Below, one piece after another: positions 27,159 through 64,000 of a stretch of 64,000 nt of DNA; the stretch's first letter is position 1; each line of letters starts with the position of its first letter. The notes under the pieces were generated by a model, which saw only the letters and a program-made list of their open reading frames with translations, was not told the origin of the DNA and made no database searches. Made by a program: the position numbers and the translations under genes. Origin of the DNA: an uncultured Candidatus Saccharibacteria bacterium (GTDB lineage Bacteria; Patescibacteriota; Minisyncoccia; Phycocordibacterales; PALSA-1337); the NCBI GenBank assembly GCA_964532285.1, contig CAZHHB010000004.1, positions 425-64,424 of the forward strand, written 5' to 3'.

Positions 27159-27261
27159 GTGTTTATTATCCCCACTTTTTCTCCCTTGTCTCCACCCCCC
27201 CGTGATAATATAGACATATACAAGGAGCGGCCTATTTGCCGTTCATATCTTCTATATATTG

Positions 27262-30200
27262 ATGAAAAAATCCTATACACTCATAACCCTACTCCTCCTC
27301 ACGACAATCATCTTACCCTCATATACTCTGGCTCAAACCAATAAATCCAATAGTAAATCCCTCCTCGCCAGCATCTACTGCTCCACTATCGGTGCTTGGT
27401 TCAATTCACCTAGCTGTATAGAGGAAACTCCATCTGTAATACCAGAAGACAAAGAGTCCAATACAACAACAATCAACCAAACCACCGCACAATCATCAAC
27501 CACAGCTTCATCAACACCCAGAAACACAACAAACTCAGTAAATACCTATCTACAATCTATACCCAACATCAGTGATATCGTAAACTCCGCAGTCCAAAAA
27601 GCTCTTTCAACATATACAACAGCAAATACCAATTCATTCAACCCTAACGATTTCGTCACTAGAGACTTCCTCTCAAGACAAGTCAGTGCTACCAGTGAAT
27701 CCGCCGGTCGTTCCGTGAGTGCCGTGTCATCTAGTATTACGAGCGGTGGGACACTGACGAATTCTGTTTTGACAAATCCAACAGCTGATTCGATATCAGT
27801 TGCCGGTAGTTCCGGACTCAAAGTTACAACTGATGGAAATGTCGGTATAGGGACGAATGCTCCAACAGTAAAATTGGATATAGCTGGTTCTGTAAATTCA
27901 CTATTGAGTAGCGGAAATATTCCAGTAGAGATCGGTTCTGTAAATGATGCAGAGAGATATGAAGCACATAGTGTGTTCGTCTCTGGACGATATTTATACA
28001 CATCAAACTATTGGCCAAATACGGCGCAAGTTATTGATATTAGTAATCCAGAATCACCCGTGATTGTTGGAAAAAAGACTGGGGTATCTTACACATCTGG
28101 TCTGTATGTTTCTGGAAAATATGCGTTTATGACAGATATGAATGGGCAAGGATTGCGTATTATTGATGTTTCAGATCCATCAAGTCCAACAATAATTTCC
28201 AGTATTTCTGGGATGGGAGTCCGTACATTGAGTCCTTTCGTTTCAGGAAGATATGTATATTTGGTGAGTGTCCTTTCGAATACACTAAATATTATAGATG
28301 TCGTTAATCCATATTCGCCGGTATTAGTATCGTCATATACGGTTGGTGGAAATCCAAATTCAGTATATGTCTCTGGGAAGTATGCATATATATTAAATAC
28401 AAATAGTGGTATAGGTAGTGTGTCTATACTTGATGTTTCTAATCCATCTATTCCAATTCCAATGAGTACCACTACAGTTGGTACGAGTTTGTATACCACA
28501 GGTACACAAGGAGGCAATTATATACTCGTTTCAGGTCGCTATATGTATGTGGCAAATTCTGGAGATAATACTGTCTCTGTTGTTGATATTTCAAATCCAA
28601 CAAGTCCGAGCATTGTCGCTACACATACTGTAGGTACTGAACCTAGAGGTATGTATTTGTCAGGTAGATATCTCTATGTGGGTAATTATGCAGGTCAAAC
28701 GATAACAACGGTGGATGTTTCTGTTCCGGAATCTCCTGTAACGATTGGCACAACACCTGTCACAGGTAAACCGTTGAGTATATACGGTTCAGGCAGATAC
28801 CTCTATGTTGGAAAGTATTACTTAAGTCCTGTCCAGGAAAGTCCTGAAAGCAACGGTGTCAGTATTCTCAAAATACCAAGCGTAGAATTTGCATCCGAAG
28901 AAGTTCATTCTCTTGAGGCTGGATCTTTGCAAGTAAAAGACAGTGCGCTTGTCCAAGGACAATTGCAAGTTACTGGTGGTATTAATTCTACAGGTTTACT
29001 TATACAGGGTGACGCTGGAATCGCTGGAAAACTTACGTCTGCTAAGGGTCTCGGTATCGGTACATCAACCCCCTACGCGATGCTATCAGTCTCAAACCTC
29101 TCTACAGCAACGACCACTCTCGCTCTCCGTCCAATAGCATCTCAAACCGCTAATATCCTAGATATATTCAATACCACTGGATCACTCGGTACAGTACTCA
29201 CCGCTAGTCACAATCTCGGACTAGGTACATCATCTCCCTACGCCAAACTCTCTGTAGTCGGAGAAGTGGTCGCTCGTAATTTCACAGCCACCTCCACTAC
29301 AGCAACAACCACAATCGGTCTCGGGGGATTGGCAGTCGGTACCACTACTCCATACGGTAATGGTCTATTGACTGTAGGGACATCCTCACCATTACTATAT
29401 GTAGACAGAAACAATGGAAATATTGGCATAGGTACAGCTAGTCCAACATCTCCTCTGCAGATATTGAGTACCCGTAGCAATCAACTTCGACTGGGTTATG
29501 ATGGTTCAAATTACACTACGCTTGGTGTGGATAGTGCAGGAAGCTTGTCTCTGACTACTGCTGGAAGTACTGGAAATCTCAATCTAACTACCGCCGGAGC
29601 TGGAAACTTCTCATTGAACAATGGTGCATTGTATTTCAGTTCAACCAATAAGACTCTGTCACTCAACAACTCTGCTTCCACAAATCAATTTGAGGTGGAT
29701 GTCCCTACTGGAACGCAATTGAACACAATACCAACAATGTTGAGCAATACAACACCAAGTGGTGTGGCTAGTGCAAGTGCAGATGCTGGTCCAAGTTATC
29801 AAGCATGGAATGCAATGGATGGAAATTTTTCCGGATATTGGCAAGCTACTGGTGTACCGAATTGGCTCGCCTATGAATTCGCTACATCAAAAACGATTGT
29901 TAAGTATACTATTTATCCTAGACCTACAGACAATTACAAACCGACTGCCTGGACATTTGAAGGTTGGGATGGAAGTCAGTGGGTTGTTCTAGATACAAGA
30001 AGTGGAATTACATGGAACATTCCTAATCCCAATACTTATACCTTCTCCAATACCACTGCATATATCAAATATCGCATAAATATTTCAGCGACCACTGATG
30101 GATATGTAAACATTACCGAACTCCAAATGTTCGAAGCCTCTTCCTACACCCCCGCCTTCGCAGTAACCACAGCTGGTCTCGCAGGTATCGGTACATCCAG

Positions 30201-31278
30201 TCCTCTCACATCACTATCATTACAGAGTCTAAGTACTACAACAGATCTATTGAACATCGCATCATCTACAGGTGCATCAGCTTTGTATATAAACAGAGCT
30301 AGCAATGTCGGTATCGGTAGTACATCCCCCTACGCCAAGCTATCAGTTGTCGGTAATGTTGCCATAAACGGCCTCACAGCCAATTCCGGCTCCAACTACG
30401 CTGTCTGTATCAACAATACAACCAAGGAACTCACAGCAGATGTCGGAGGTGCCTGTAACCCTTCATCAGAGAGATTCAAGAACAACATACAACCTCTAGC
30501 AGTATCTGCTACCGATATCATATCCTCCCTAAAACCCTCTACATTCTCATACAACAATACAAACTCATCAAACGCCACCACCTCTACCAAATACGGTCTC
30601 ATCGCAGAACAAGTCTCTCTTATAGACCCACATCTCGCTACCTATGAAGAAGACGGAACTACTCCTCATGGACTAGATCAGAGTGCCATACTGTCGGTAC
30701 TCGTGAAGGCGGTGCAGGAGATCGCGGTGAAAGTGGGTGCGATAACAAATTCGGCTGGCGAAATAGTTTTCAATGTTGTCAGAAGTACGCTCGGTGTATT
30801 TTCAAAAGTCGAAACTGATACTCTATGTGTAGGGAAAACTTGTGTGACTGAGACAGAGTTACAGGCACTACTTTTGAGGAACGGTGTAAACCCTATTATA
30901 TATACAAATCCTGAACAATTATCAACGACAACTGTGACAGAAACAACATCAGTAGCGTCACCATCGTCCACAGCATCAACAAATACACCCAGTGGAACGA
31001 GCATGGTATCACCAAGTCCAACTCCTGAAATTACTCCAGAGAATACGCCAGAATCCATTGTCGAATCTACATCAAGTCCTACACCAGAACCATCACCAGA
31101 GTCGACTACCTCTCCCGAAATAATCTTGGAAAATACATCAGAGTCAACTCCTGATCCTGTCACCGGACAAACATCGGAACCATCACCAGAGCCGACCGCT
31201 TCTCCCGCAGGAGAAACAGATGTTACTCCAGAACCATCTCCAGCACCAGTATTACCAGAGCCATCTCCTGTAGAATAA
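27262..31278 (+). CDS. Giant secreted surface protein: signal peptide, LVIVD-repeat beta-propeller region, repetitive 'GIGTxSPYAKLSV' region, F5/8 type C (discoidin) domain, phage tail-fibre-like peptidase S74 (intramolecular chaperone) domain, Pro/Thr/Glu-rich tail
   Basis: Signal peptide 'MMKKSYTLITLLLLTTIILPSYTLAQT'. LVIVD-like units 'YVSGKYAFMTDMNGQGLRIIDVSDPSSP'. Discoidin-like 'GYWQATGVPNWLAYEF...WTFEGWDGSQW'. S74-like 'CNPSSERFKNNIQPL...YGLIAEQV'. The frame opens at TTG 27259; the first ATG is at 27262. Confidence 0.7.
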   Translation: MKKSYTLITLLLLTTIILPSYTLAQTNKSNSKSLLASIYCSTIGAWFNSPSCIEETPSVIPEDKESNTTTINQTTAQSSTTASSTPRNTTNSVNTYLQSIPNISDIVNSAVQKALSTYTTANTNSFNPNDFVTRDFLSRQVSATSESAGRSVSAVSSSITSGGTLTNSVLTNPTADSISVAGSSGLKVTTDGNVGIGTNAPTVKLDIAGSVNSLLSSGNIPVEIGSVNDAERYEAHSVFVSGRYLYTSNYWPNTAQVIDISNPESPVIVGKKTGVSYTSGLYVSGKYAFMTDMNGQGLRIIDVSDPSSPTIISSISGMGVRTLSPFVSGRYVYLVSVLSNTLNIIDVVNPYSPVLVSSYTVGGNPNSVYVSGKYAYILNTNSGIGSVSILDVSNPSIPIPMSTTTVGTSLYTTGTQGGNYILVSGRYMYVANSGDNTVSVVDISNPTSPSIVATHTVGTEPRGMYLSGRYLYVGNYAGQTITTVDVSVPESPVTIGTTPVTGKPLSIYGSGRYLYVGKYYLSPVQESPESNGVSILKIPSVEFASEEVHSLEAGSLQVKDSALVQGQLQVTGGINSTGLLIQGDAGIAGKLTSAKGLGIGTSTPYAMLSVSNLSTATTTLALRPIASQTANILDIFNTTGSLGTVLTASHNLGLGTSSPYAKLSVVGEVVARNFTATSTTATTTIGLGGLAVGTTTPYGNGLLTVGTSSPLLYVDRNNGNIGIGTASPTSPLQILSTRSNQLRLGYDGSNYTTLGVDSAGSLSLTTAGSTGNLNLTTAGAGNFSLNNGALYFSSTNKTLSLNNSASTNQFEVDVPTGTQLNTIPTMLSNTTPSGVASASADAGPSYQAWNAMDGNFSGYWQATGVPNWLAYEFATSKTIVKYTIYPRPTDNYKPTAWTFEGWDGSQWVVLDTRSGITWNIPNPNTYTFSNTTAYIKYRINISATTDGYVNITELQMFEASSYTPAFAVTTAGLAGIGTSSPLTSLSLQSLSTTTDLLNIASSTGASALYINRASNVGIGSTSPYAKLSVVGNVAINGLTANSGSNYAVCINNTTKELTADVGGACNPSSERFKNNIQPLAVSATDIISSLKPSTFSYNNTNSSNATTSTKYGLIAEQVSLIDPHLATYEEDGTTPHGLDQSAILSVLVKAVQEIAVKVGAITNSAGEIVFNVVRSTLGVFSKVETDTLCVGKTCVTETELQALLLRNGVNPIIYTNPEQLSTTTVTETTSVASPSSTASTNTPSGTSMVSPSPTPEITPENTPESIVESTSSPTPEPSPESTTSPEIILENTSESTPDPVTGQTSEPSPEPTASPAGETDVTPEPSPAPVLPEPSPVE

Positions 31279-33312: not shown

Positions 33313-36300
33313 TTGGACATGACTATTCAAAAGATGGAAGACGAAAATAAGAAAAAAGAAATACAGAAAAGTCAGAGTGCTCTCCGCGAAGAGCGTATTT
33401 TGGCATATTGGAATGAGAAAGATATTTTCAAGAAAACCTTAGAGAAACCTGCGCCTAAGGGAACTTACACATTCTATGATGGACCGCCTTTCGCTACGGG
33501 GACTCCGCATTATGGTCATATTCTAGCCAGTACGATCAAGGACGCTGTACCAAGGTTTTGGACTATGAGGGGTTACAAGATTCCACGCCGTTGGGGTTGG
33601 GATTGCCACGGTTTACCTGTAGAAAATCTCATAGAAAAAGAATTAAATTTGAAGACAAAGAAAGACATAATCAGTTATGGTATAGGAAAGTTCAATGACG
33701 GAGCACGTTCTGCTGTTATGCGTTATGCAGATGAATGGCGCAAGATTATCCCACGCCTCGGTCGTTTCGTAGATATGGATGACGATTATCGCACTATGGA
33801 TGCGAGCTATACCGAAACTGTTTGGTGGACATTCAAACGCCTATACGACAAAGGGTTGATTTATGAGGGGTTCAAGTCTATGAGTCTATGTCCGCGATGT
33901 GAGACTACATTGTCAAACTTTGAGGTTGCTCAGGGTTACAAAGATATAACTGATATTTCGGTTTATGTGAAGTTTAAAATTAAATCTCAAAAATTAAATC
34001 TCAAAAATGAGGCACAGGATTCATTGGGGAATGTTTATTTGATCGCCTGGACGACCACCCCATGGACCTTGCCGGGTAATGTGGCTTTGGCTGTAAATCC
34101 AGATATTGAATATTGCAAAGTGAAGATTACAGAGTCCGCAAGGGGAGACGGTGTTTCATCTGCGGGAGATTTGTTAATCGTCGCCAAGTCTAGATTGGTG
34201 GCTTTGAAAGATATCAAGTACGAGATTGTGGAGACTTTCAAAGGTTCCGACCTTGTGGGCGAATCTTACGAGTCATTATTTGATTATTACTCCAAAGACT
34301 CTGAGTTGAAGAATAGGGAAAATGGTTGGAGGGTGTACGGTGCAGATTTTGTTACGACCGAAGATGGAACTGGTGTGGTGCACATCGCTCCAGCTTTTGG
34401 TGCTGACGATTATGAAATGCTCACGAAACACGATTTGCCTTTTGTTCAACATGTGACGACAGGCGGCCATTTCAAAAAGGAAGTTACTGATTTTGCCGGT
34501 ATAGCGGTAAAGCCTAAGGCTGTTGAGGGAGAAAAGGATGCAAACCAAAAGGCCGATATCGAGATCATCAAATGGCTTGCTCATCGTGGTGGTCTGTTCG
34601 CAAAGGAGAAAATAGTTCATTCATATCCGCACTGTTGGCGCTGTGACACCCCACTTTTGAATTACGCCGCTTCCTCATGGTTTGTAAAAGTGACAGACCT
34701 GAAAGACAAACTGGTAGCTGAAAATAAAAAAGTGAAATGGACGCCGCCTGAGATTGGTGAAGGAAGATTTGGTAATTGGCTGTCGGGTGCGCGCGATTGG
34801 GCAATATCGCGTTCTAGATTCTGGGGAGCACCTATACCTGTCTGGAAAGAAGAGAAGACTGGAGTTTGCCATGTTCTCGGCTCAGTAGGGGATTTGAAAA
34901 AATTCAGTAAAGCCAAGAATACATATTATGTCATGCGTCATGGACAAGCAGACAATAATGTTAAAGGTATTTTGAGTAATGATATTGCTGATCCGTATCA
35001 TCTGACAGATGAAGGTCGGAAACAAGTGGCGGAGACGGCTGATAGATTGAAAGGGGTCAAGTTCGATGAAATATTCGTCTCACCTTTTGTCAGAACTAGA
35101 GAGACAGCTAATATTGTGAAAGAGAAACTTGGCTGGAAAGATGAAGATATGCATGTTGATGAGAGGATTCGTGAACTCGGATCAGGAGTTTTTGCTGGCA
35201 AGAGTGTGGAGGAATTTTCACAAGTTTTCCCATTCAGAGAGAGATTTACAAAATGTCCAGAAGGAGGTGAGACCTATGCCGATATCAAGAAGCGCATGGG
35301 AGATTTCCTCTACGATATGGAGAGTAAGTATTCGGGGAAGACCATCATGATAGTCAGTCATGAGACCTCGTCATACCTGCTTGTTGCGGCGGCTATGGGA
35401 CTGAATAGGGAACAAACACTTGATCTGCGTGGTGACTGTGATTTCATGGCCAATGCTGAATGTAGGAAGATAGAATTCTCACCCCTACCACACAACGCCG
35501 AATATGAATTAGATCTACATCGTCCTTATATTGATGATGTTGATTTGAGGACTCATCATGGAGACAAGTTGATGCGAGTTCAGGATGTCTTTGATTGTTG
35601 GTATGAATCAGGGTCCATGCCTTATGGTGAAGCTCATTATCCATTTGAGAATACTGAACAATTTGAACCGGCTTCTGGTCTATTTAAAAAATCTGTAGGT
35701 TTCCCAGCCGACTTCATTGCTGAAGGAGTAGATCAGACACGCGGGTGGTTCTATTCAATGATGGTTTTGGGTGTTGCTCTATTCGGCAAATCTCCATACA
35801 AGAGAGTTGTCGTCAACGGATTGGTCTTGGCTGAAGATGGTCAGAAGATGTCGAAATCAAAGAATAATTTCCCAGATCCGATCTTGATCTTTGATAAATA
35901 CGGCGTTGATGCACTCAGATATTATCTACTTTCATCACCACTTCTGAAGGCAGAAGATCTGAATTTCTCTGAGAAGGATGTAGATCTAATAAATAAAAAG
36001 ATCGTTATGCGCTTAGACAATGTCGTATCATTTTATAAATTATATGAGACTTCTCAAAAATCCGAGCCAAAGTCTCAGGTTTCTACAAATGTTCTGGATA
36101 TTTGGATCACAACAAGGTTGGATGAACTTGCAAGCGAAATAACCAAAGCGATGGAAAAATATGAGCTTGATAAGGCGACAAGGCCTATCGCTGATTTTGT
36201 GGATGATCTATCTACCTGGTACTTACGTCGTTCACGAGACAGGTTCAAAGGAGATGATTTGTCGGACAAGGAAAGTGCTTTGAATACCACCAGATATGTC

Positions 36301-36870
36301 CTGTTGGAAACAGCCAAGCTGATCGCTCCATTCATGCCTTTCTTGGCAGAAGATATATATAAGCAAGTGGGAGGGGCGAAGGAAAGTGTGCATTTGGAAG
36401 ATTGGCCAACGACGGAGAAAGTTGATGCCAATATTCTTGATGAAATGAGAGCTGTTCGAGCCATTGCTTCATCTGGTTTGGAGGCGCGCACCGTCGCCAA
36501 GATCAATATTCGTCAACCTCTAGCAACCATGGAGGTCAAGAGTAATAGGAAATTGGGAGAACAACTTGTAGAGCTTTTGAAAGATGAGGTCAATGTAAAG
36601 AGGGTGGTATTCGGTGCGGATATTGATAAAGAAGCGACCTTGGATATGAATATTACTCCGGAACTCAAAGAAGAAGGTCAGGTGCGTGAATTGTTACGCA
36701 CCATTCAAGATCTTCGCAAGGAGAAGGGGCTTAAGGTGGGGGATAAAGCGACACTTACTGTTACAGATGATATGAAAGATTTAGTTTCGCGCCATGAAAA
36801 AGAAATAATGAAGGCGACGGGATTGGAGCAGATAGAATATGGCGACAAAATGGAGATCGCGACGCCGTGA
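33313..36870 (+). CDS. ileS: Isoleucyl-tRNA synthetase (type 2) with an inserted histidine-phosphatase (PGAM-like) domain
   Basis: 'PHYGHILAS', 'WDCHGLPVE', 'WAISRSRFWGAPIP' and 'KMSKSKNN' are all present. Between 'PIPVWKEE' and 'DVFDCWYESGS' there are about 250 aa, versus about 60 in typical IleRS. The extra segment carries 'VMRHGQADN', 'VSPFVRTRETA' and 'IVSHETS'. Confidence 0.85.
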   Translation: MDMTIQKMEDENKKKEIQKSQSALREERILAYWNEKDIFKKTLEKPAPKGTYTFYDGPPFATGTPHYGHILASTIKDAVPRFWTMRGYKIPRRWGWDCHGLPVENLIEKELNLKTKKDIISYGIGKFNDGARSAVMRYADEWRKIIPRLGRFVDMDDDYRTMDASYTETVWWTFKRLYDKGLIYEGFKSMSLCPRCETTLSNFEVAQGYKDITDISVYVKFKIKSQKLNLKNEAQDSLGNVYLIAWTTTPWTLPGNVALAVNPDIEYCKVKITESARGDGVSSAGDLLIVAKSRLVALKDIKYEIVETFKGSDLVGESYESLFDYYSKDSELKNRENGWRVYGADFVTTEDGTGVVHIAPAFGADDYEMLTKHDLPFVQHVTTGGHFKKEVTDFAGIAVKPKAVEGEKDANQKADIEIIKWLAHRGGLFAKEKIVHSYPHCWRCDTPLLNYAASSWFVKVTDLKDKLVAENKKVKWTPPEIGEGRFGNWLSGARDWAISRSRFWGAPIPVWKEEKTGVCHVLGSVGDLKKFSKAKNTYYVMRHGQADNNVKGILSNDIADPYHLTDEGRKQVAETADRLKGVKFDEIFVSPFVRTRETANIVKEKLGWKDEDMHVDERIRELGSGVFAGKSVEEFSQVFPFRERFTKCPEGGETYADIKKRMGDFLYDMESKYSGKTIMIVSHETSSYLLVAAAMGLNREQTLDLRGDCDFMANAECRKIEFSPLPHNAEYELDLHRPYIDDVDLRTHHGDKLMRVQDVFDCWYESGSMPYGEAHYPFENTEQFEPASGLFKKSVGFPADFIAEGVDQTRGWFYSMMVLGVALFGKSPYKRVVVNGLVLAEDGQKMSKSKNNFPDPILIFDKYGVDALRYYLLSSPLLKAEDLNFSEKDVDLINKKIVMRLDNVVSFYKLYETSQKSEPKSQVSTNVLDIWITTRLDELASEITKAMEKYELDKATRPIADFVDDLSTWYLRRSRDRFKGDDLSDKESALNTTRYVLLETAKLIAPFMPFLAEDIYKQVGGAKESVHLEDWPTTEKVDANILDEMRAVRAIASSGLEARTVAKINIRQPLATMEVKSNRKLGEQLVELLKDEVNVKRVVFGADIDKEATLDMNITPELKEEGQVRELLRTIQDLRKEKGLKVGDKATLTVTDDMKDLVSRHEKEIMKATGLEQIEYGDKMEIATP

Positions 36871-37715: not shown

Positions 37716-39674
37716 GTGCCCAATCCTGAAGATAAAAGTTACATTGAAGAACTCAAAAAGTCTCTTTATTCTAGAACAGCTCCCGATGTGCGTACCAGAC
37801 GCAAGTTGAGATTTAGTGATACGAACAAGAGCGTGCCGACCAATTGGGATAAGCAGACTTCAGAAGCGGGGCATAGCGGCGATAGTGTGGGGCCACCCCT
37901 TAAACTCAATCAAAATTACGAAAATCATCGCATGTCATTCTTTACAAAACTTCTAATATATTCAGGTACCTTCTGTTTGATCGCTGTAGGCGTCGGCGGT
38001 TATTTGTTCCTGAATGGAGCCAATCTTATATCTGCCAACAATATTTCCATAGATATAAATGGTCCAGTCTCCATCGCTGGTGGAGAGCCGGTTTCTTTCG
38101 ATATACGAGTCAGCAATCAAAACAATATTGATTTGCGTATCGTGGATCTATCTATTGATTTCCCCGCAGGCGCCACAGATCCAAATGATCCAACCAAAGA
38201 GTTGAGAAATTTTCGAGAATTCCTCGGGGACATACCAGCTGGTGAATCAAAGACCAAGACAGTATCCGCGATCATCTTTGGAGAAGAAAATCTTCAGAAG
38301 CAAATATTTGTGACGGTGACTTATTCCATAAAGGGTTCTTCTTCCGTTTTTTCCAAAACACAGACACATGAAGTTCTCATCAATTCCTCACCGATAAACA
38401 TGACCATTTCTTCCTTCAAAGAAATAACATCTGGGCAAGAATTCGATACTGAGGTGAGGTTGAAGTCTAACTCCAAAGAAACCTTGAAAAATGTTATACT
38501 GAAAGTCGCATATCCATTTGGCTATATTCTTTCCTCATCCAATCCGGTGTCACTTTCAGACAAGACTACCTGGAAAGTTGGAGACATTCCACCCGGTGCA
38601 GAACGCAGGGTGATTATTCACGGCAAGATTACTGGTGAAGACAATGATACTAGAGTTTTTCACTTCACGGTTGGAGCGCAAAGCTCGTCAGATTCCAGTG
38701 TTATTGGCACTCAGTATATGACGACAGAGCAAGATATTGTTATTCAGAAGCCGTTCATATCATTAAAGGTGGCTGTGGATAATGATAGTTCGCCCGATGA
38801 TTTCATCGCACAAGCCGGACAATCAAGAAGGGTAGAGATAGCATGGTTCAATAATCTTCCCACAACAGTTTCCAATGTAACCGTTACCGCCAAGTTATCT
38901 GGATCTGCTTATGATAAGACTTTAGTCAGTCCAGACCAAGGATATTTCGATTCATCAAAGGATGAGATTGTCTGGAGCAGGCAGACCAATAGTGAATTGG
39001 GTTCTGTTTCTGCTGGAGATACCGGTACGGTGTCATTTACCATTACTCCAAAAGATGTTTCTGTGGGTAATACTATCAGCAATCCTTCTCTGGCCATCAC
39101 AGCCAGTGTTTCTGGTAGCCGTACGCAAGAGACAAATGTTCCTCAAACTATCGCTGCAGTTGTCACAAAGAATATAAAAATCTCTTCCAATATTTCACTT
39201 TCAGGTAGAGTTGTGCGTACGACAGGACCTTTTGTAAATAGCGGCTTCGTTCCACCGAAGATTGACCAGCCTACGACTTATACAGTTATATGGAATGTAG
39301 ATAATGCCTCAAACATTGTTAATAATTCTCAGGTTACAGCAACACTGCCACCTTATGTTGAATGGCTTTCTATGACCAGTCCAGCAAATGAGAATATTTC
39401 TTTTGATAAAGATAGTGGGAAGATCACCTGGAATGTTGGAAGTGTCGGTATTTACACATTGAGTTCTTCAAGGAGGAGGGAAGTGATGTTCCAGGTCTCA
39501 TTCAAACCAAATGTGAATCAAGTCGGGCAGTCGCCTGTGATTGTCAATTCAGCGGTTTTGACTGCCACGGACAATTTCACTGGTGCTAGCTTGCAAGATG
39601 GACAGGATAGTCTGACGACGAGGTTTAGTACTGATCCCAGCTATAAAAGTGGTGATGAGGTTGTGGGGAAGTAA
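37716..39674 (+). CDS. Hypothetical membrane-anchored protein with multiple beta-sandwich (DUF11/CARDB-like) repeats
   Basis: A single TM 'LLIYSGTFCLIAVGVGGYLFL' followed by repeated Ig-like segments. No catalytic motifs. Confidence 0.5.
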   Translation: MPNPEDKSYIEELKKSLYSRTAPDVRTRRKLRFSDTNKSVPTNWDKQTSEAGHSGDSVGPPLKLNQNYENHRMSFFTKLLIYSGTFCLIAVGVGGYLFLNGANLISANNISIDINGPVSIAGGEPVSFDIRVSNQNNIDLRIVDLSIDFPAGATDPNDPTKELRNFREFLGDIPAGESKTKTVSAIIFGEENLQKQIFVTVTYSIKGSSSVFSKTQTHEVLINSSPINMTISSFKEITSGQEFDTEVRLKSNSKETLKNVILKVAYPFGYILSSSNPVSLSDKTTWKVGDIPPGAERRVIIHGKITGEDNDTRVFHFTVGAQSSSDSSVIGTQYMTTEQDIVIQKPFISLKVAVDNDSSPDDFIAQAGQSRRVEIAWFNNLPTTVSNVTVTAKLSGSAYDKTLVSPDQGYFDSSKDEIVWSRQTNSELGSVSAGDTGTVSFTITPKDVSVGNTISNPSLAITASVSGSRTQETNVPQTIAAVVTKNIKISSNISLSGRVVRTTGPFVNSGFVPPKIDQPTTYTVIWNVDNASNIVNNSQVTATLPPYVEWLSMTSPANENISFDKDSGKITWNVGSVGIYTLSSSRRREVMFQVSFKPNVNQVGQSPVIVNSAVLTATDNFTGASLQDGQDSLTTRFSTDPSYKSGDEVVGK

Positions 39675-62672: not shown

Positions 62673-62979
62673 TATCTTACAGAATGATAATCATGTTAAA
62701 CCACTCAAAGACGCGGCCATAGCCACACTCCTTATGGGGCGTAGCTTGTAGCCGCTGAATAAAGCGGTTTTTCATTTCCAGGAGGAAAGCAGTTTGAAAA
62801 TTTCATACCAAAAGAAAGTAAAGAGTTCGTTTTTATTGAGTAAATAAAAATTGAACGGCTTATTCATTTTTCGGGTCGAAAGATGGGTAGGTGTGGATGT
62901 AGGTTTATAGCCCTACGACGCTCTGCTTTGCAGAGCTAAGAAGGGCAAGAACACACAGCGGTGTGTGGATTTCCTAGTA

Positions 62980-64000
<1,021 letters not shown>

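What the first reader, a model, noticed from the sequence alone, without database searches (positions are those of the whole stretch)
34900..35570. Histidine-phosphatase (PGAM/RHG-type) domain inserted into the catalytic core of IleRS
IleRS (33313..36870) is 1185 aa. Between the conserved 'WAISRSRFWGAPIPVWKEE' and 'DVFDCWYESGS' blocks there are about 250 residues instead of the usual ~60. The extra ~190 aa contain the three hallmark motifs of the histidine-phosphatase superfamily branch 1: 'VMRHGQADN' (catalytic RHG), 'VSPFVRTRETA' (SPLxRAxxTA) and 'IVSHETS' (second His). There are no intein splicing motifs, neither a C/S...HN junction nor endonuclease blocks. This therefore looks like a genuine in-frame domain insertion that creates an aaRS-phosphatase chimera, not a self-splicing element.
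Basis: partly seen in the sequence, partly recalled or inferred. Interest (0 to 1): 0.8.

Follow-up and report, generated by a model that had tools for sequence, protein, structure and literature searches.

The report
Phosphatase domain nested inside IleRS
The isoleucyl-tRNA synthetase of this tiny-genome (Patescibacteria) bacterium carries a complete, apparently active histidine phosphatase inside a surface loop of its catalytic domain; this two-enzymes-in-one design is standard across a whole bacterial class, recurs in valyl-tRNA synthetases, and seems never to have been studied.

Summary
ORF 33313..36870 is a type-2 IleRS (TIGR00392, 878 bits). A 198-aa insert (aa 536-733, nt 34918..35511) matches His_Phos_1 at E=2e-33. 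It replaces only 2 residues of human IARS1 and lies in the peripheral CP3 subdomain. It is not an intein or an assembly artefact.

- **Phosphatase:** all catalytic residues are present (R542, H543, R594, E621, H683). They are intact in 121/121 close and 147/148 wider relatives.
- **Fold:** the insert is predicted confidently as a PhoE/PspA/CobC-like lobe (pLDDT 85-95, TM 0.70-0.77).
- **Synthetase:** the HYGH, KMSKS and editing motifs are intact.
- **Distribution:** all 120 best relatives have the insert. At least 98 GTDB species representatives of Paceibacteria/Parcubacteria have it, with conserved ArgRS-IleRS-RecO synteny and host-like base composition.
- **Recurrence:** related inserts occur at other IleRS sites and in ValRS of Gracilibacteria/Peregrinibacteria, mostly again in CP3.
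- **Relic:** one gene kept only the phosphatase.

The substrate and the reason for the fusion are unknown. I found no paper describing it. Most likely it is an active small-molecule phosphomonoesterase tethered to a working IleRS.

The parts
33313..36870 (+). Whole chimeric IleRS ORF (1185 aa from TTG; the probable true start is ATG 33334, giving 1178 aa)
   Evidence: ORF; TIGR00392 ileS 878.5 bits against cutoff 621.4; public protein P0162 starts at M8.
33313..34917 (+). IleRS N-terminal part (aa 1-535): first half of the Rossmann fold, CP core, CP1 editing domain, CP2, and the first part of CP3
   Evidence: tRNA-synt_1 aa 29-538; aligns to human IARS1 14-495; domain names from PMC7191050 and PMC7955072.
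33508..33519 (+). HIGH signature (HYGH, aa 66-69)
   Evidence: H66, G68 and H69 are invariant in 50 relatives.
34048..34068 (+). Editing-site threonine-rich motif WTTTPWT (aa 246-252)
   Evidence: W246, T247-T249, W251 and T252 are invariant. Its role in editing is from established knowledge of IleRS CP1.
34789..34827 (+). CP2-CP3 linker ARDWAISRSRFWG (aa 493-505), counterpart of the yeast 453-ARDWNVSRNRYWG-465 that lines the tRNA CCA/reveromycin pocket
   Evidence: PMC7955072.
34918..35511 (+). Inserted histidine-phosphatase module (aa 536-733, 198 aa) including its C-terminal linker 'SPLPHNAEYEL'
   Evidence: it replaces human residues 496-497; delimited in 34 homologs; GC 0.428, GC3 0.394, matching the host.
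34927..35433 (+). Pfam His_Phos_1 match (aa 539-707)
   Evidence: E=2.3e-33; PhoE 1EBB/1H2E, E=4e-13; model pLDDT 80.6; Foldseek TM 0.70-0.77 to 9MMH, PhoE, PspA, GpgP.
34936..34944 (+). Catalytic RHG (R542, H543 the nucleophile, G544)
   Evidence: R and H are 34/34 in divergent chimeras and intact in 121/121 close relatives.
35092..35094 (+). Second phosphate-pocket arginine, R594 (in SPFVRTRETA)
35173..35175 (+). Proton-donor glutamate, E621
   Evidence: aligns with the PhoE 'REIHLG' Glu; 31 E plus 3 D of 34.
35359..35361 (+). Second catalytic histidine, H683 (in IVSHETS)
35512..36870 (+). IleRS C-terminal part (aa 734-1185): rest of CP3 from 'DLHRPYIDD', second half of the Rossmann fold, anticodon-binding domain, and C-terminal DUF5915 domain
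   Evidence: Anticodon_1 at 929-1070, DUF5915 at 1109-1180; aligns to human 498-799.
35845..35859 (+). KMSKS signature (aa 845-849)
   Evidence: K845, M846 and K848 are invariant.

Best explanation
The gene encodes one polypeptide holding two enzymes, one nested inside the other. The host is a type-2 (eukaryote/Thermus-like) isoleucyl-tRNA synthetase with intact synthetic (HYGH, KMSKS) and editing motifs, so it should charge tRNA-Ile normally. A complete short histidine phosphatase of branch 1 (PhoE/PspA/CobC type, about 198 aa) is spliced into a surface loop of the peripheral CP3 subdomain. It begins directly with its first beta-strand (TYYVMRHG) and returns through a last strand and the linker SPLPHNAEYEL. 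It has the full catalytic set (Arg-His, Arg, Glu, His) and is predicted to fold as an independent alpha/beta lobe.

Shown: the architecture, the conservation of the catalytic residues, the fold, the wide vertical distribution in Paceibacteria/Parcubacteria, the recurrence in ValRS and at other IleRS sites, and a relic gene that kept only the phosphatase.

Inferred: both activities are functional. The phosphatase hydrolyses a phosphomonoester through a phospho-His543 intermediate. Its substrate is more likely a small molecule (nucleotide, sugar phosphate or phospho-amino acid) than tRNA. The main effect of nesting is obligatory co-expression and co-localisation with an essential class Ia synthetase, not precise substrate channelling. 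The substrate is unknown.
For: Host identity: TIGR00392 878.5 bits; best PDB relatives are type-2/eukaryotic IleRS at 663-708 bits, against type-1 S. aureus IleRS at 296 bits.

Insert identity: His_Phos_1 E=2.3e-33; PhoE E=4e-13 with all catalytic residues aligned.

Catalytic conservation: R542, H543, R594 and H683 are 34/34 and E621 is 31 E plus 3 D in representatives whose inserts are on average only 33% identical pairwise. The pentad is intact in 121/121 close and 147/148 wider relatives.

Fold: pLDDT is about 85-95 across aa 520-730 in the full-length model. The insert-only model has pTM 0.82 and matches short phosphatases 9MMH, 1H2E, 4IJ5 and 4PZ9 at TM 0.70-0.77.

Synthetase integrity: the synthetase and editing motifs are invariant in 50 relatives.

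Single open frame: 66/80 species-representative loci have one open frame of at least 1100 codons through the insert, and 13 of the other 14 are cut by contig or locus ends.

Age and vertical descent: ArgRS is upstream in 53/80 and RecO downstream in 69/80 loci. Insert GC and GC3 equal the host's.

Autonomy: the relic P0010 keeps the phosphatase ORF, short IleRS-derived flanks and the RecO neighbour, but has lost both synthetase halves.

Small-molecule leaning: the nearest structures all act on small phosphomonoesters. The insert carries no consistent positive charge (window -8; family mean +0.7, sd 7.6). Inserts occur at several separate positions along the IleRS sequence.
Against: No enzymatic data exist for either activity. 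Relative domain orientation is not reliably predicted (pTM 0.58, low pLDDT in the Rossmann core), so coupling between the active sites cannot be excluded. The same phosphatase clade was captured repeatedly by IleRS and ValRS, mostly in the homologous CP3 loop, and 130 of its 161 closest members sit inside class Ia synthetases. That pattern is hard to explain by mere co-expression and hints at a functional link with aminoacylation. In ValRS hosts 22/79 copies lack the Glu and/or the second His, so catalysis is not always what is retained. I could not test whether a second, insert-free IleRS exists in the same genome.
Confidence: 0.75

Rival explanations
1. Functionally coupled accessory. The phosphatase acts on something produced or used by the synthetase. 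One option is removal of a 3'- or 2'-phosphate from damaged tRNA ends so that they can be charged (end healing, as in Pnkp-type repair). Another is hydrolysis of a nucleotide product or a phosphorylated inhibitor near the active site.
For: The insert lies about 30 residues after the CP2-CP3 linker that lines the tRNA CCA pocket in yeast IleRS. The same phosphatase clade is found almost only inside IleRS/ValRS (130/161). It was captured in the homologous CP3 loop of both paralogs (64/83 ValRS copies). One IleRS (P0160) also carries a P-loop kinase-like AAA_18/AAA_33 domain, which recalls kinase-phosphatase end-healing enzymes.
Against: There is no consistent basic surface. The nearest structural relatives act on small molecules. 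Inserts also occur at sites B and C, far along the sequence from CP3. The papers read do not describe CP3 as a tRNA-contacting element. The relic P0010 persists without any synthetase.
Confidence: 0.2
2. It is the organism's cofactor-dependent phosphoglycerate mutase (a glycolytic enzyme) parked inside IleRS.
For: The best NCBIfam hit for the insert is archaeal dPGM NF038349 (101 bits). The monomeric S. pombe PGM 1FZT is among the structural matches (TMq 0.73).
Against: The score is far below the equivalog cutoff (101 against 225), and TIGR01258 pgm_1 scores 17 against 81.7. After the Glu the sequence reads ELGSG, not the dPGM ERHYG. After the second His it reads HETS, not HGNS (plus established knowledge of dPGM signatures). 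The top structural hits are phosphatases. Gracilibacteria, some of which lack essentially all glycolysis genes (PMC8406219), still carry the domain in ValRS.
Confidence: 0.07
3. Catalytically irrelevant passenger. The domain is a neutral or selfish in-frame insertion tolerated by a permissive loop, or a pseudo-enzyme kept only as a structural or binding module.
For: CP3 is structurally variable among IleRS (PMC7191050). Patescibacterial IleRS tolerate other inserted domains, including a GNAT, a kinase-like domain and even an in-frame IS200-type transposase domain. Tandem and multi-site copies exist. 22/79 ValRS copies have lost catalytic residues.
Against: In IleRS hosts the catalytic pentad is intact in 268 of 269 copies even though the rest of the insert has diverged to about 33% identity. 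The insert has been kept across at least 98 species-level lineages. The relic retains an intact phosphatase ORF.
Confidence: 0.06
4. Intein or other self-splicing element, or an assembly or gene-calling artefact that fuses separate genes.
For: The insert is large, sits in an essential gene, and has an 'HN' dipeptide near its C-terminal end (PLPHNAEYEL).
Against: There are no Hint, intein or homing-endonuclease families. The residue after HN is Ala, not Cys/Ser/Thr, and the HN is not conserved in other lineages (LPYDND, LPFNKD, APRRKN). The first insert residue is Asn, not Cys/Ser. The whole insert is accounted for by a His_Phos fold. The same continuous frame is present in 66 independent genomes and in hundreds of database clusters. 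The fragmented versions (L001, L002, L088) carry frameshifts throughout IleRS and ArgRS, as expected from sequencing errors.
Confidence: 0.01

Closest known systems
Short branch-1 histidine phosphatases: PhoE/YhfR (1EBB, 1H2E), PspA phosphoserine phosphatase (4IJ5), GpgP Rv2419c (4PZ9), CobC (6E4B, 6NRU), riboflavin-pathway HFP (9MMH)
   Same: Size of about 200 aa; the RHG...R...E...H catalytic set; the 'GGE' motif; the alpha/beta fold (TM 0.70-0.77, 22-27% identity).
   Different: These are free-standing proteins. Here the domain is nested inside another enzyme and has an extra C-terminal strand and linker that return to the host. No NCBIfam equivalog cutoff is reached, so no substrate can be transferred.
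Type-2 IleRS (eukaryotic cytoplasmic IleRS 9W01, 7D5C, 6LDK; P. megaterium IleRS2 8C8U; T. thermophilus 1ILE)
   Same: Full-length collinear homology at 663-708 bits; HIGH and KMSKS signatures; CP1 editing domain; CP2 and CP3; anticodon-binding and C-terminal domains.
   Different: A 198-aa enzyme domain replaces 2 residues in the CP3 loop. CP3 in the known structures is a small 60-70 aa subdomain.
NCBIfam NF040702 'ileS_w_GNAT' (IleRS containing an N-acetyltransferase domain)
   Same: An IleRS with a foreign enzyme domain inserted in-frame. The related protein P0095 carries both a His_Phos and a GNAT.
   Different: The window protein has no GNAT and scores 335 bits against a cutoff of 1999. 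In P0095 the GNAT sits at a different site, between 'SGSMPYA' and 'DQTRGWFY'.
Bifunctional RNase H / acid phosphatase (Rv2228c type, NCBIfam PRK07238)
   Same: A CobC/PhoE-like histidine phosphatase covalently joined to an enzyme of nucleic-acid metabolism. The insert matches its phosphatase half (80 bits).
   Different: That is an end-to-end fusion, not a nested insertion. The score is below cutoff (80 against 326) and the partner enzyme is different.
CP1 editing domain of class Ia synthetases (the canonical nested domain)
   Same: [quoted passage not shown]
   Different: CP1 is universal, ancient, and acts on the aminoacyl-tRNA product. The His_Phos insert is lineage-restricted, belongs to an unrelated superfamily, and has no known link to the reaction.
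Inteins
   Same: A large in-frame insertion in an essential housekeeping enzyme.
   Different: No Hint fold, splice-junction residues or endonuclease. The insert is a conserved enzyme that remains in the mature reading frame.

Membership tests
Histidine phosphatase superfamily, branch 1 (Pfam PF00300) | Profile match above the curated threshold | tested here: met
   115.9 bits against a cutoff of 21.7, E=2.3e-33, aa 539-707.
Histidine phosphatase superfamily, branch 1 (Pfam PF00300) | RHG motif with the nucleophilic His, second Arg, proton-donor Glu/Asp, and second His | tested here: met
   R542, H543, G544, R594, E621 and H683 align with the PhoE catalytic residues. They are conserved in 34/34 divergent and 121/121 close homologs.
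Histidine phosphatase superfamily, branch 1 (Pfam PF00300) | Alpha/beta fold of the phosphoglycerate-mutase type | tested here: met
   AF2 insert model pLDDT 80.6, pTM 0.82. Foldseek probability 1.00 and TM 0.70-0.77 to 9MMH, 1H2E, 4IJ5, 4PZ9 and 1FZT.
Histidine phosphatase superfamily, branch 1 (Pfam PF00300) | Phosphomonoesterase (or mutase) activity through a phospho-histidine intermediate | not testable with these tools
   Requires an enzyme assay.
Cofactor-dependent phosphoglycerate mutase (dPGM) | Equivalog-level profile score and the dPGM substrate-binding signatures (ERHYG after the Glu; HGNS at the second His) | tested here: not met
   NF038349 scores 101 against 225; TIGR01258 17 against 81.7; NF002339 46 against 316. 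The sequence reads ELGSG and HETS.
Isoleucyl-tRNA synthetase (TIGR00392), type 2 | Equivalog profile score; HIGH and KMSKS signatures; CP1 editing motif; closer to eukaryote/Thermus-type than to type-1 IleRS | tested here: met
   878.5 bits against 621.4. HYGH at aa 66-69, KMSKS at 845-849, WTTTPWT at 246-252. PDB type-2 hits score 663-708 bits against type-1 at 246-296 bits.
Isoleucyl-tRNA synthetase (TIGR00392), type 2 | Aminoacylation of tRNA-Ile, and being the only IleRS of the genome | not testable with these tools
   Needs an assay and the complete genome; only 64 kb is available.
Mupirocin-resistance IleRS MupA/MupB (NF000257/NF000258) | Exception-level profile score | tested here: not met
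   693 and 707 bits against a cutoff of 1900.
IleRS with GNAT domain (NF040702) | Profile score and presence of an acetyltransferase domain | tested here: not met
   335 bits against 1999. No GNAT family in Pfam.
Intein | Hint domain; Cys/Ser at the first residue; His-Asn followed by Cys/Ser/Thr at the C-terminal junction | tested here: not met
   No Hint or intein families. The first insert residue is Asn536. 'HN' is followed by Ala and is not conserved among homologs.
Anti-phage defence systems (PADLOC) | Match to any defence-system protein model | tested here: not met
   0 families for the insert and for the whole protein.

The most novel reading that the evidence does not exclude
Patescibacteria (CPR) may have evolved a previously unrecognised accessory module for the two editing class Ia synthetases. 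A PhoE-like histidine phosphatase was captured independently by IleRS (Paceibacteria) and ValRS (Gracilibacteria/Peregrinibacteria), preferentially in the homologous CP3 loop, sometimes in 2-4 copies and at other sites. On this reading the module is functionally coupled to aminoacylation. It might clear phosphorylated tRNA ends, a nucleotide by-product, or a phosphorylated antimetabolite. That would amount to a third catalytic activity on these synthetases, beside synthesis and editing.
Probability: 0.2. Interest if true: 0.8.

Novelty: new variant of a known kind. Interest (0 to 1): 0.62.

Why it matters
Aminoacyl-tRNA synthetases are among the most conserved enzymes, and new catalytic domains inside their cores are rare. 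Here an entire bacterial class, plus ValRS in sister lineages, has kept an apparently active phosphatase nested in the catalytic domain over a long evolutionary time.

If the two activities are coupled, this would be a new kind of synthetase accessory function in organisms whose biology is largely unknown. If they are not coupled, it is a clear natural example of how a permissive loop (CP3) lets minimal genomes pack an extra enzyme into an essential gene, and it gives protein engineers a ready insertion site.

There is also a practical point. Automatic annotation currently names these essential IleRS/ValRS genes 'class I tRNA ligase family protein' or 'histidine phosphatase family protein'. 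Both names can distort metabolic reconstructions of CPR genomes, for example through a false 'phosphoglycerate mutase' call or an apparently missing IleRS.

Tried and rejected
- **Intein or self-splicing element:** rejected. No Hint or endonuclease families and no splice-junction residues.
- **Assembly or gene-call artefact:** rejected. There is a continuous frame in 66 genomes. The fragmented relatives L001, L002 and L088 have frameshifts all along IleRS and ArgRS. The 'free-standing' hits P0002 and P0008 were such fragments.
- **Glycolytic dPGM:** rejected on profile cutoffs and signature residues.
- **Defence-system or phage origin:** PADLOC gave nothing. PHROGs gave only an uncharacterised His_Phos family, phrog_12933.
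- **Recent horizontal acquisition:** insert GC and GC3 equal the host's, and I saw no repeat on reading the 45 nt on either side of each junction.
- **Domain tree:** a neighbour-joining tree of inserts, other-site copies and free homologs was star-like and gave no reliable order of events.
- **Polyphyletic hosts:** the test of whether 'eukaryote-like' and 'Thermus-like' IleRS hosts are polyphyletic was inconclusive. P0041 host against window host scores 787 bits, against insert-free P. megaterium IleRS2 795 bits.
- **Divergent-alignment scan:** a genome-collection scan with the divergent alignment A2 failed for lack of a conserved stretch. The scan with the closer alignment A3 therefore samples only the nearer clade.
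- **afdb50 fold search:** the library was unavailable.
- **Literature:** six searches found no description of IleRS or ValRS with a histidine-phosphatase insert. The library lacks most subscription journals, so this is absence of evidence only.
Full report
**1. The observation**

The window holds an uninterrupted ORF at 33313..36870 (+) of 1185 codons counted from a TTG. The public copy of the same protein (P0162, 100% identical, 1178 aa) starts at the in-frame ATG at 33334. I keep the 1185-aa numbering.

NCBIfam identifies the protein as isoleucine-tRNA ligase: TIGR00392 scores 878.5 bits against a cutoff of 621.4. Pfam splits the class I catalytic-domain match around a His_Phos_1 match at aa 539-707, with E=2.3e-33 and 115.9 bits against a cutoff of 21.7.

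In the HMMER alignment to human cytoplasmic IleRS (9W01), query residue 535 pairs with human 495 and query 734 pairs with human 498. The insert is therefore aa 536-733 (198 aa, nt 34918..35511) and replaces two residues.

**2. The host**

The best solved relatives are eukaryotic cytoplasmic IleRS, P. megaterium IleRS2 and T. thermophilus IleRS at 663-708 bits. Type-1 IleRS such as S. aureus reach only 246-296 bits. This is a type-2 IleRS.

The following motifs are present and invariant or nearly so in an alignment of 50 relatives:
- HYGH (aa 66-69)
- KMSKS (aa 845-849)
- the editing-site WTTTPWT (aa 246-252)
- GVVHIAPAFGADD (aa 354-366)

I infer that the synthetase and its editing site are functional.

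The published domain maps put CP3 at residues 473-534 in C. albicans IleRS and 459-526 in yeast IleRS (PMC7191050; PMC7955072). Window residues 532 and 536 align to residues 499 and 496 of those chains. The insertion is therefore inside CP3, after its hairpin and first helix and just before 'DLHRPYIDD'.

CP3 is a peripheral subdomain whose topology differs between C. albicans, Thermus and S. aureus enzymes. In humans it serves as a docking surface for LARS1 (PMC13439101). The papers I read do not describe it as a tRNA contact. However, the CP2-CP3 linker about 30 residues upstream (ARDWAISRSRFWG here) lines the CCA/reveromycin pocket in yeast.

**3. The insert**

The closest solved sequence relative is the broad-specificity phosphatase PhoE/YhfR (1EBB, 1H2E; E=4e-13). 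Every catalytic residue is aligned: R542, H543, N549, R594, E621 and H683.

An AlphaFold model of the whole protein has only moderate overall confidence (mean pLDDT 74.5, pTM 0.58), but pLDDT is about 85-95 throughout aa 520-730. The insert modelled alone gives pLDDT 80.6 and pTM 0.82.

Foldseek places the insert with the short branch-1 phosphatases at TM 0.70-0.77:
- the riboflavin-pathway HFP 9MMH
- PhoE
- the PspA phosphoserine phosphatase
- glucosyl-3-phosphoglycerate phosphatase
- E. histolytica PSP
- CobC

No NCBIfam equivalog cutoff is reached, so no specific substrate can be transferred. The best hit, archaeal dPGM, scores 101 bits against 225. The dPGM-specific signatures are absent: the sequence reads ELGSG rather than ERHYG, and HETS rather than HGNS.

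There are no intein, Hint or endonuclease matches. The junction residues are Asn536 at the start and HN-Ala near the end, and they are not conserved in homologs. This excludes a canonical intein. Rfam finds nothing in the region.

**4. Distribution**

An exhaustive HMMER search of 1.84 billion cluster representatives with the insert gave 94 hits at E<1e-30. Of the 161 closest proteins fetched, 130 are flanked by IleRS-like class Ia sequence, 29 are free or fragments, and 2 sit in another context.

All 120 best full-length relatives of the window protein (58-66% identity) carry PF00300. Where named, they come from Paceibacterota, Parcubacteria, Taylorbacteria or the 'Patescibacteria group', and some lie on contigs of 650-825 kb.

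A deliberately narrow pattern scan of one genome per GTDB species found 98 relatives. The record titles among the 80 kept loci include Parcubacteria, Paceibacterota, Nomura-, Taylor-, Yonath-, Vogel- and Wolfebacteria and the 'Patescibacteria group'; about 38 carry an automated 'uncultured Candidatus Saccharibacteria' label and a few are unclassified. In those 80 loci:
- 66 have a single open frame of at least 1100 codons running through the insert.
- 13 of the remaining 14 are cut by contig or locus ends.
- ArgRS lies upstream in 53 and RecO downstream in 69, as in the window.

Insert GC and GC3 (0.428 and 0.394) equal the host's (0.428 and 0.414), and no other His_Phos copy exists in the window. 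The insertion is therefore old and vertically inherited. In this clade it simply is the IleRS.

**5. Selection on the phosphatase**

Across 34 divergent chimeras the insert averages 33% pairwise identity against 43% for the host. Even so, R542, H543, R594 and H683 are 34/34, and E621 is 31 Glu plus 3 Asp. With an HMM-based alignment of every copy fetched, the pentad is intact in 121/121 close relatives and 147/148 of the wider set. This is the pattern expected if catalysis is under selection.

**6. A wider phenomenon**

Pfam confirms that some IleRS carry two or more His_Phos domains at other positions (P0143, P0161, P0129):
- between 'SGSMPYA' and 'DQTRGWFY'
- between the KMSKS region and the anticodon-binding domain
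- in a second CP3 loop

P0161 has no copy at the window's site. There its CP3 loop has only about two residues more than the host-derived part of the window's loop.

Other IleRS combine the phosphatase with further domains. P0160 adds a P-loop kinase-like AAA_18/AAA_33 domain. P0095 adds a GNAT and an in-frame IS200-type Y1 transposase domain. The GNAT case corresponds to an architecture NCBI already models as 'ileS_w_GNAT'.

P0051 is a ValRS with four copies. A search with it showed that ValRS chimeras of 1030-1626 aa are common in Gracilibacteria and Peregrinibacteria, next to insert-free ValRS of 880-930 aa. In these ValRS, 64 of 83 copies again sit within 70 residues after the WGxxIP motif, that is in CP3. 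However, 22 of 79 copies lack the Glu and/or the second His.

IleRS and ValRS are ancient paralogs that lack this insert elsewhere. I therefore infer that the same domain family entered the homologous loop at least twice.

Whether the 'eukaryote-like' and 'Thermus-like' IleRS hosts inherited one insertion could not be decided.

**7. A natural excision**

P0010 is a 251-aa free His_Phos seen on 13 contigs. It lies directly upstream of RecO and is 50% identical to aa 476-707 of the chimeric IleRS P0138. The match includes IleRS-derived flanks ('VWK...', 'IPHN..EFD'), and tblastn similarity extends a little upstream of its start codon. Nothing else of IleRS remains. Its catalytic residues are intact.

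This is a relic of a chimeric IleRS that lost the synthetase and kept the phosphatase. It argues that the phosphatase has value of its own and can work without being in cis with IleRS.

**8. How it most likely works**

Shown: a nested, independently folding, catalytically complete histidine phosphatase sits in a permissive CP3 loop of an otherwise canonical type-2 IleRS. It is maintained for a long time in many lineages.

Inferred: both enzymes are active, and the phosphatase uses His543 as nucleophile and Glu621 as acid.

I lean towards a small-molecule phosphomonoester substrate and tethering or co-expression rather than channelling, for four reasons:
- The nearest structures are small-molecule phosphatases.
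- The domain has no consistent positive charge (window -8, pI 5.2; family mean +0.7, sd 7.6).
- Copies occur at several separate positions along the IleRS sequence.
- The relic survives alone.

The main counter-argument is the near-exclusive and repeated association of this clade with IleRS and ValRS, usually in CP3. That keeps a reaction-coupled role alive, such as tRNA end healing or removal of a nucleotide or antimetabolite.

A glycolytic mutase role is unlikely. Some Gracilibacteria lack essentially all glycolysis genes (PMC8406219), yet members of that group carry the domain in ValRS.

**9. Comparison and novelty**

The parts are ordinary members of known families: IleRS type 2 and His_Phos branch 1. 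Both memberships were tested and met.

The combination is a nested two-enzyme architecture. It is analogous in form to the CP1 editing domain or to 'ileS_w_GNAT', and in content to the end-to-end RNase H/acid-phosphatase fusion of mycobacteria.

Six full-text searches found no description of it. A 2026 survey of domain insertions discusses synthetases as hosts but contains no occurrence of 'phosphatase'. The sequences are public, but they are labelled 'class I tRNA ligase family protein', 'hypothetical protein' or 'histidine phosphatase family protein, partial'.

I rate it a new variant of a known kind. It is real, widespread and unexplained, but it is not a new category of system.

**10. Limits**

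- There is no biochemistry.
- Domain orientation is not reliable.
- I could not test for a second IleRS in the genome.
- The genome scan sampled only the nearer clade.
- The literature library omits most subscription journals.

Noticed in passing
P0095 (IleRS relative, aa 340-461, 680-854, 935-1063); P0160 (aa 746-869): Other patescibacterial IleRS carry further in-frame foreign domains. P0095 has an IS200-type Y1 transposase domain inside the editing-domain region plus a GNAT acetyltransferase. P0160 has a P-loop kinase-like AAA_18/AAA_33 domain between 'SGSMPYA' and 'DQTRGWFY'.
   Followed up: partly
P0051 and P0283-P0401 (ValRS relatives): ValRS of Gracilibacteria/Peregrinibacteria commonly carry 1-4 His_Phos copies, and 64/83 copies are in CP3. 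In 22/79 copies the Glu and/or the second His is replaced (RHRGH, RHRSN, RHRAN and others), which suggests catalytic decay in some lineages.
   Followed up: partly
L005 3488-4243, L006 875-1630, L007 1104-1859: P0010 is a 251-aa stand-alone phosphatase directly upstream of RecO. It retains IleRS-derived flanks, so it is the relic of a chimeric IleRS whose synthetase parts were deleted.
   Followed up: yes
L088 937-3022: In one relative, an IS605 OrfB-like gene and a Cas1 gene sit between ArgRS and the chimeric IleRS.
   Followed up: no
L001, L002, L088: IleRS (and in L002 also ArgRS) is broken into several overlapping ORFs by frameshifts along its whole length. These are most likely long-read assembly errors, and they create spurious 'free-standing' phosphatase genes such as P0002 and P0008.
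   Followed up: yes
window 33313-33336: The longest ORF starts at TTG 33313, but the public annotation of the identical protein starts at ATG 33334 (1178 aa). The true start is probably the ATG.
   Followed up: partly
window 27259-31278: A 1339-aa ORF combines LVIVD repeats, a beta-propeller, an F5/8 type C domain and a Peptidase_S74 (endosialidase chaperone) domain. It looks like a large surface or adhesion protein just upstream of ArgRS.
   Followed up: no
window 37716-39674: A 652-aa ORF downstream of RecO has no Pfam match. A gene of similar size (624 aa, weak CLIPPER hit) follows RecO in L088.
   Followed up: no
window 62975-64000: The 5' part of the 23S rRNA covers model positions 1-908 in 1026 nt, about 118 nt more than the model. 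This may be a small expansion or insertion.
   Followed up: no
public records of P0004, P0006, P0164, P0178, P0192 and others: Automatic annotation names these essential synthetases 'class I tRNA ligase family protein', 'hypothetical protein' or 'histidine phosphatase family protein, partial'. The likely reason is that the insert pushes them outside the annotation pipeline's naming rules. This could mislead metabolic reconstructions.
   Followed up: partly
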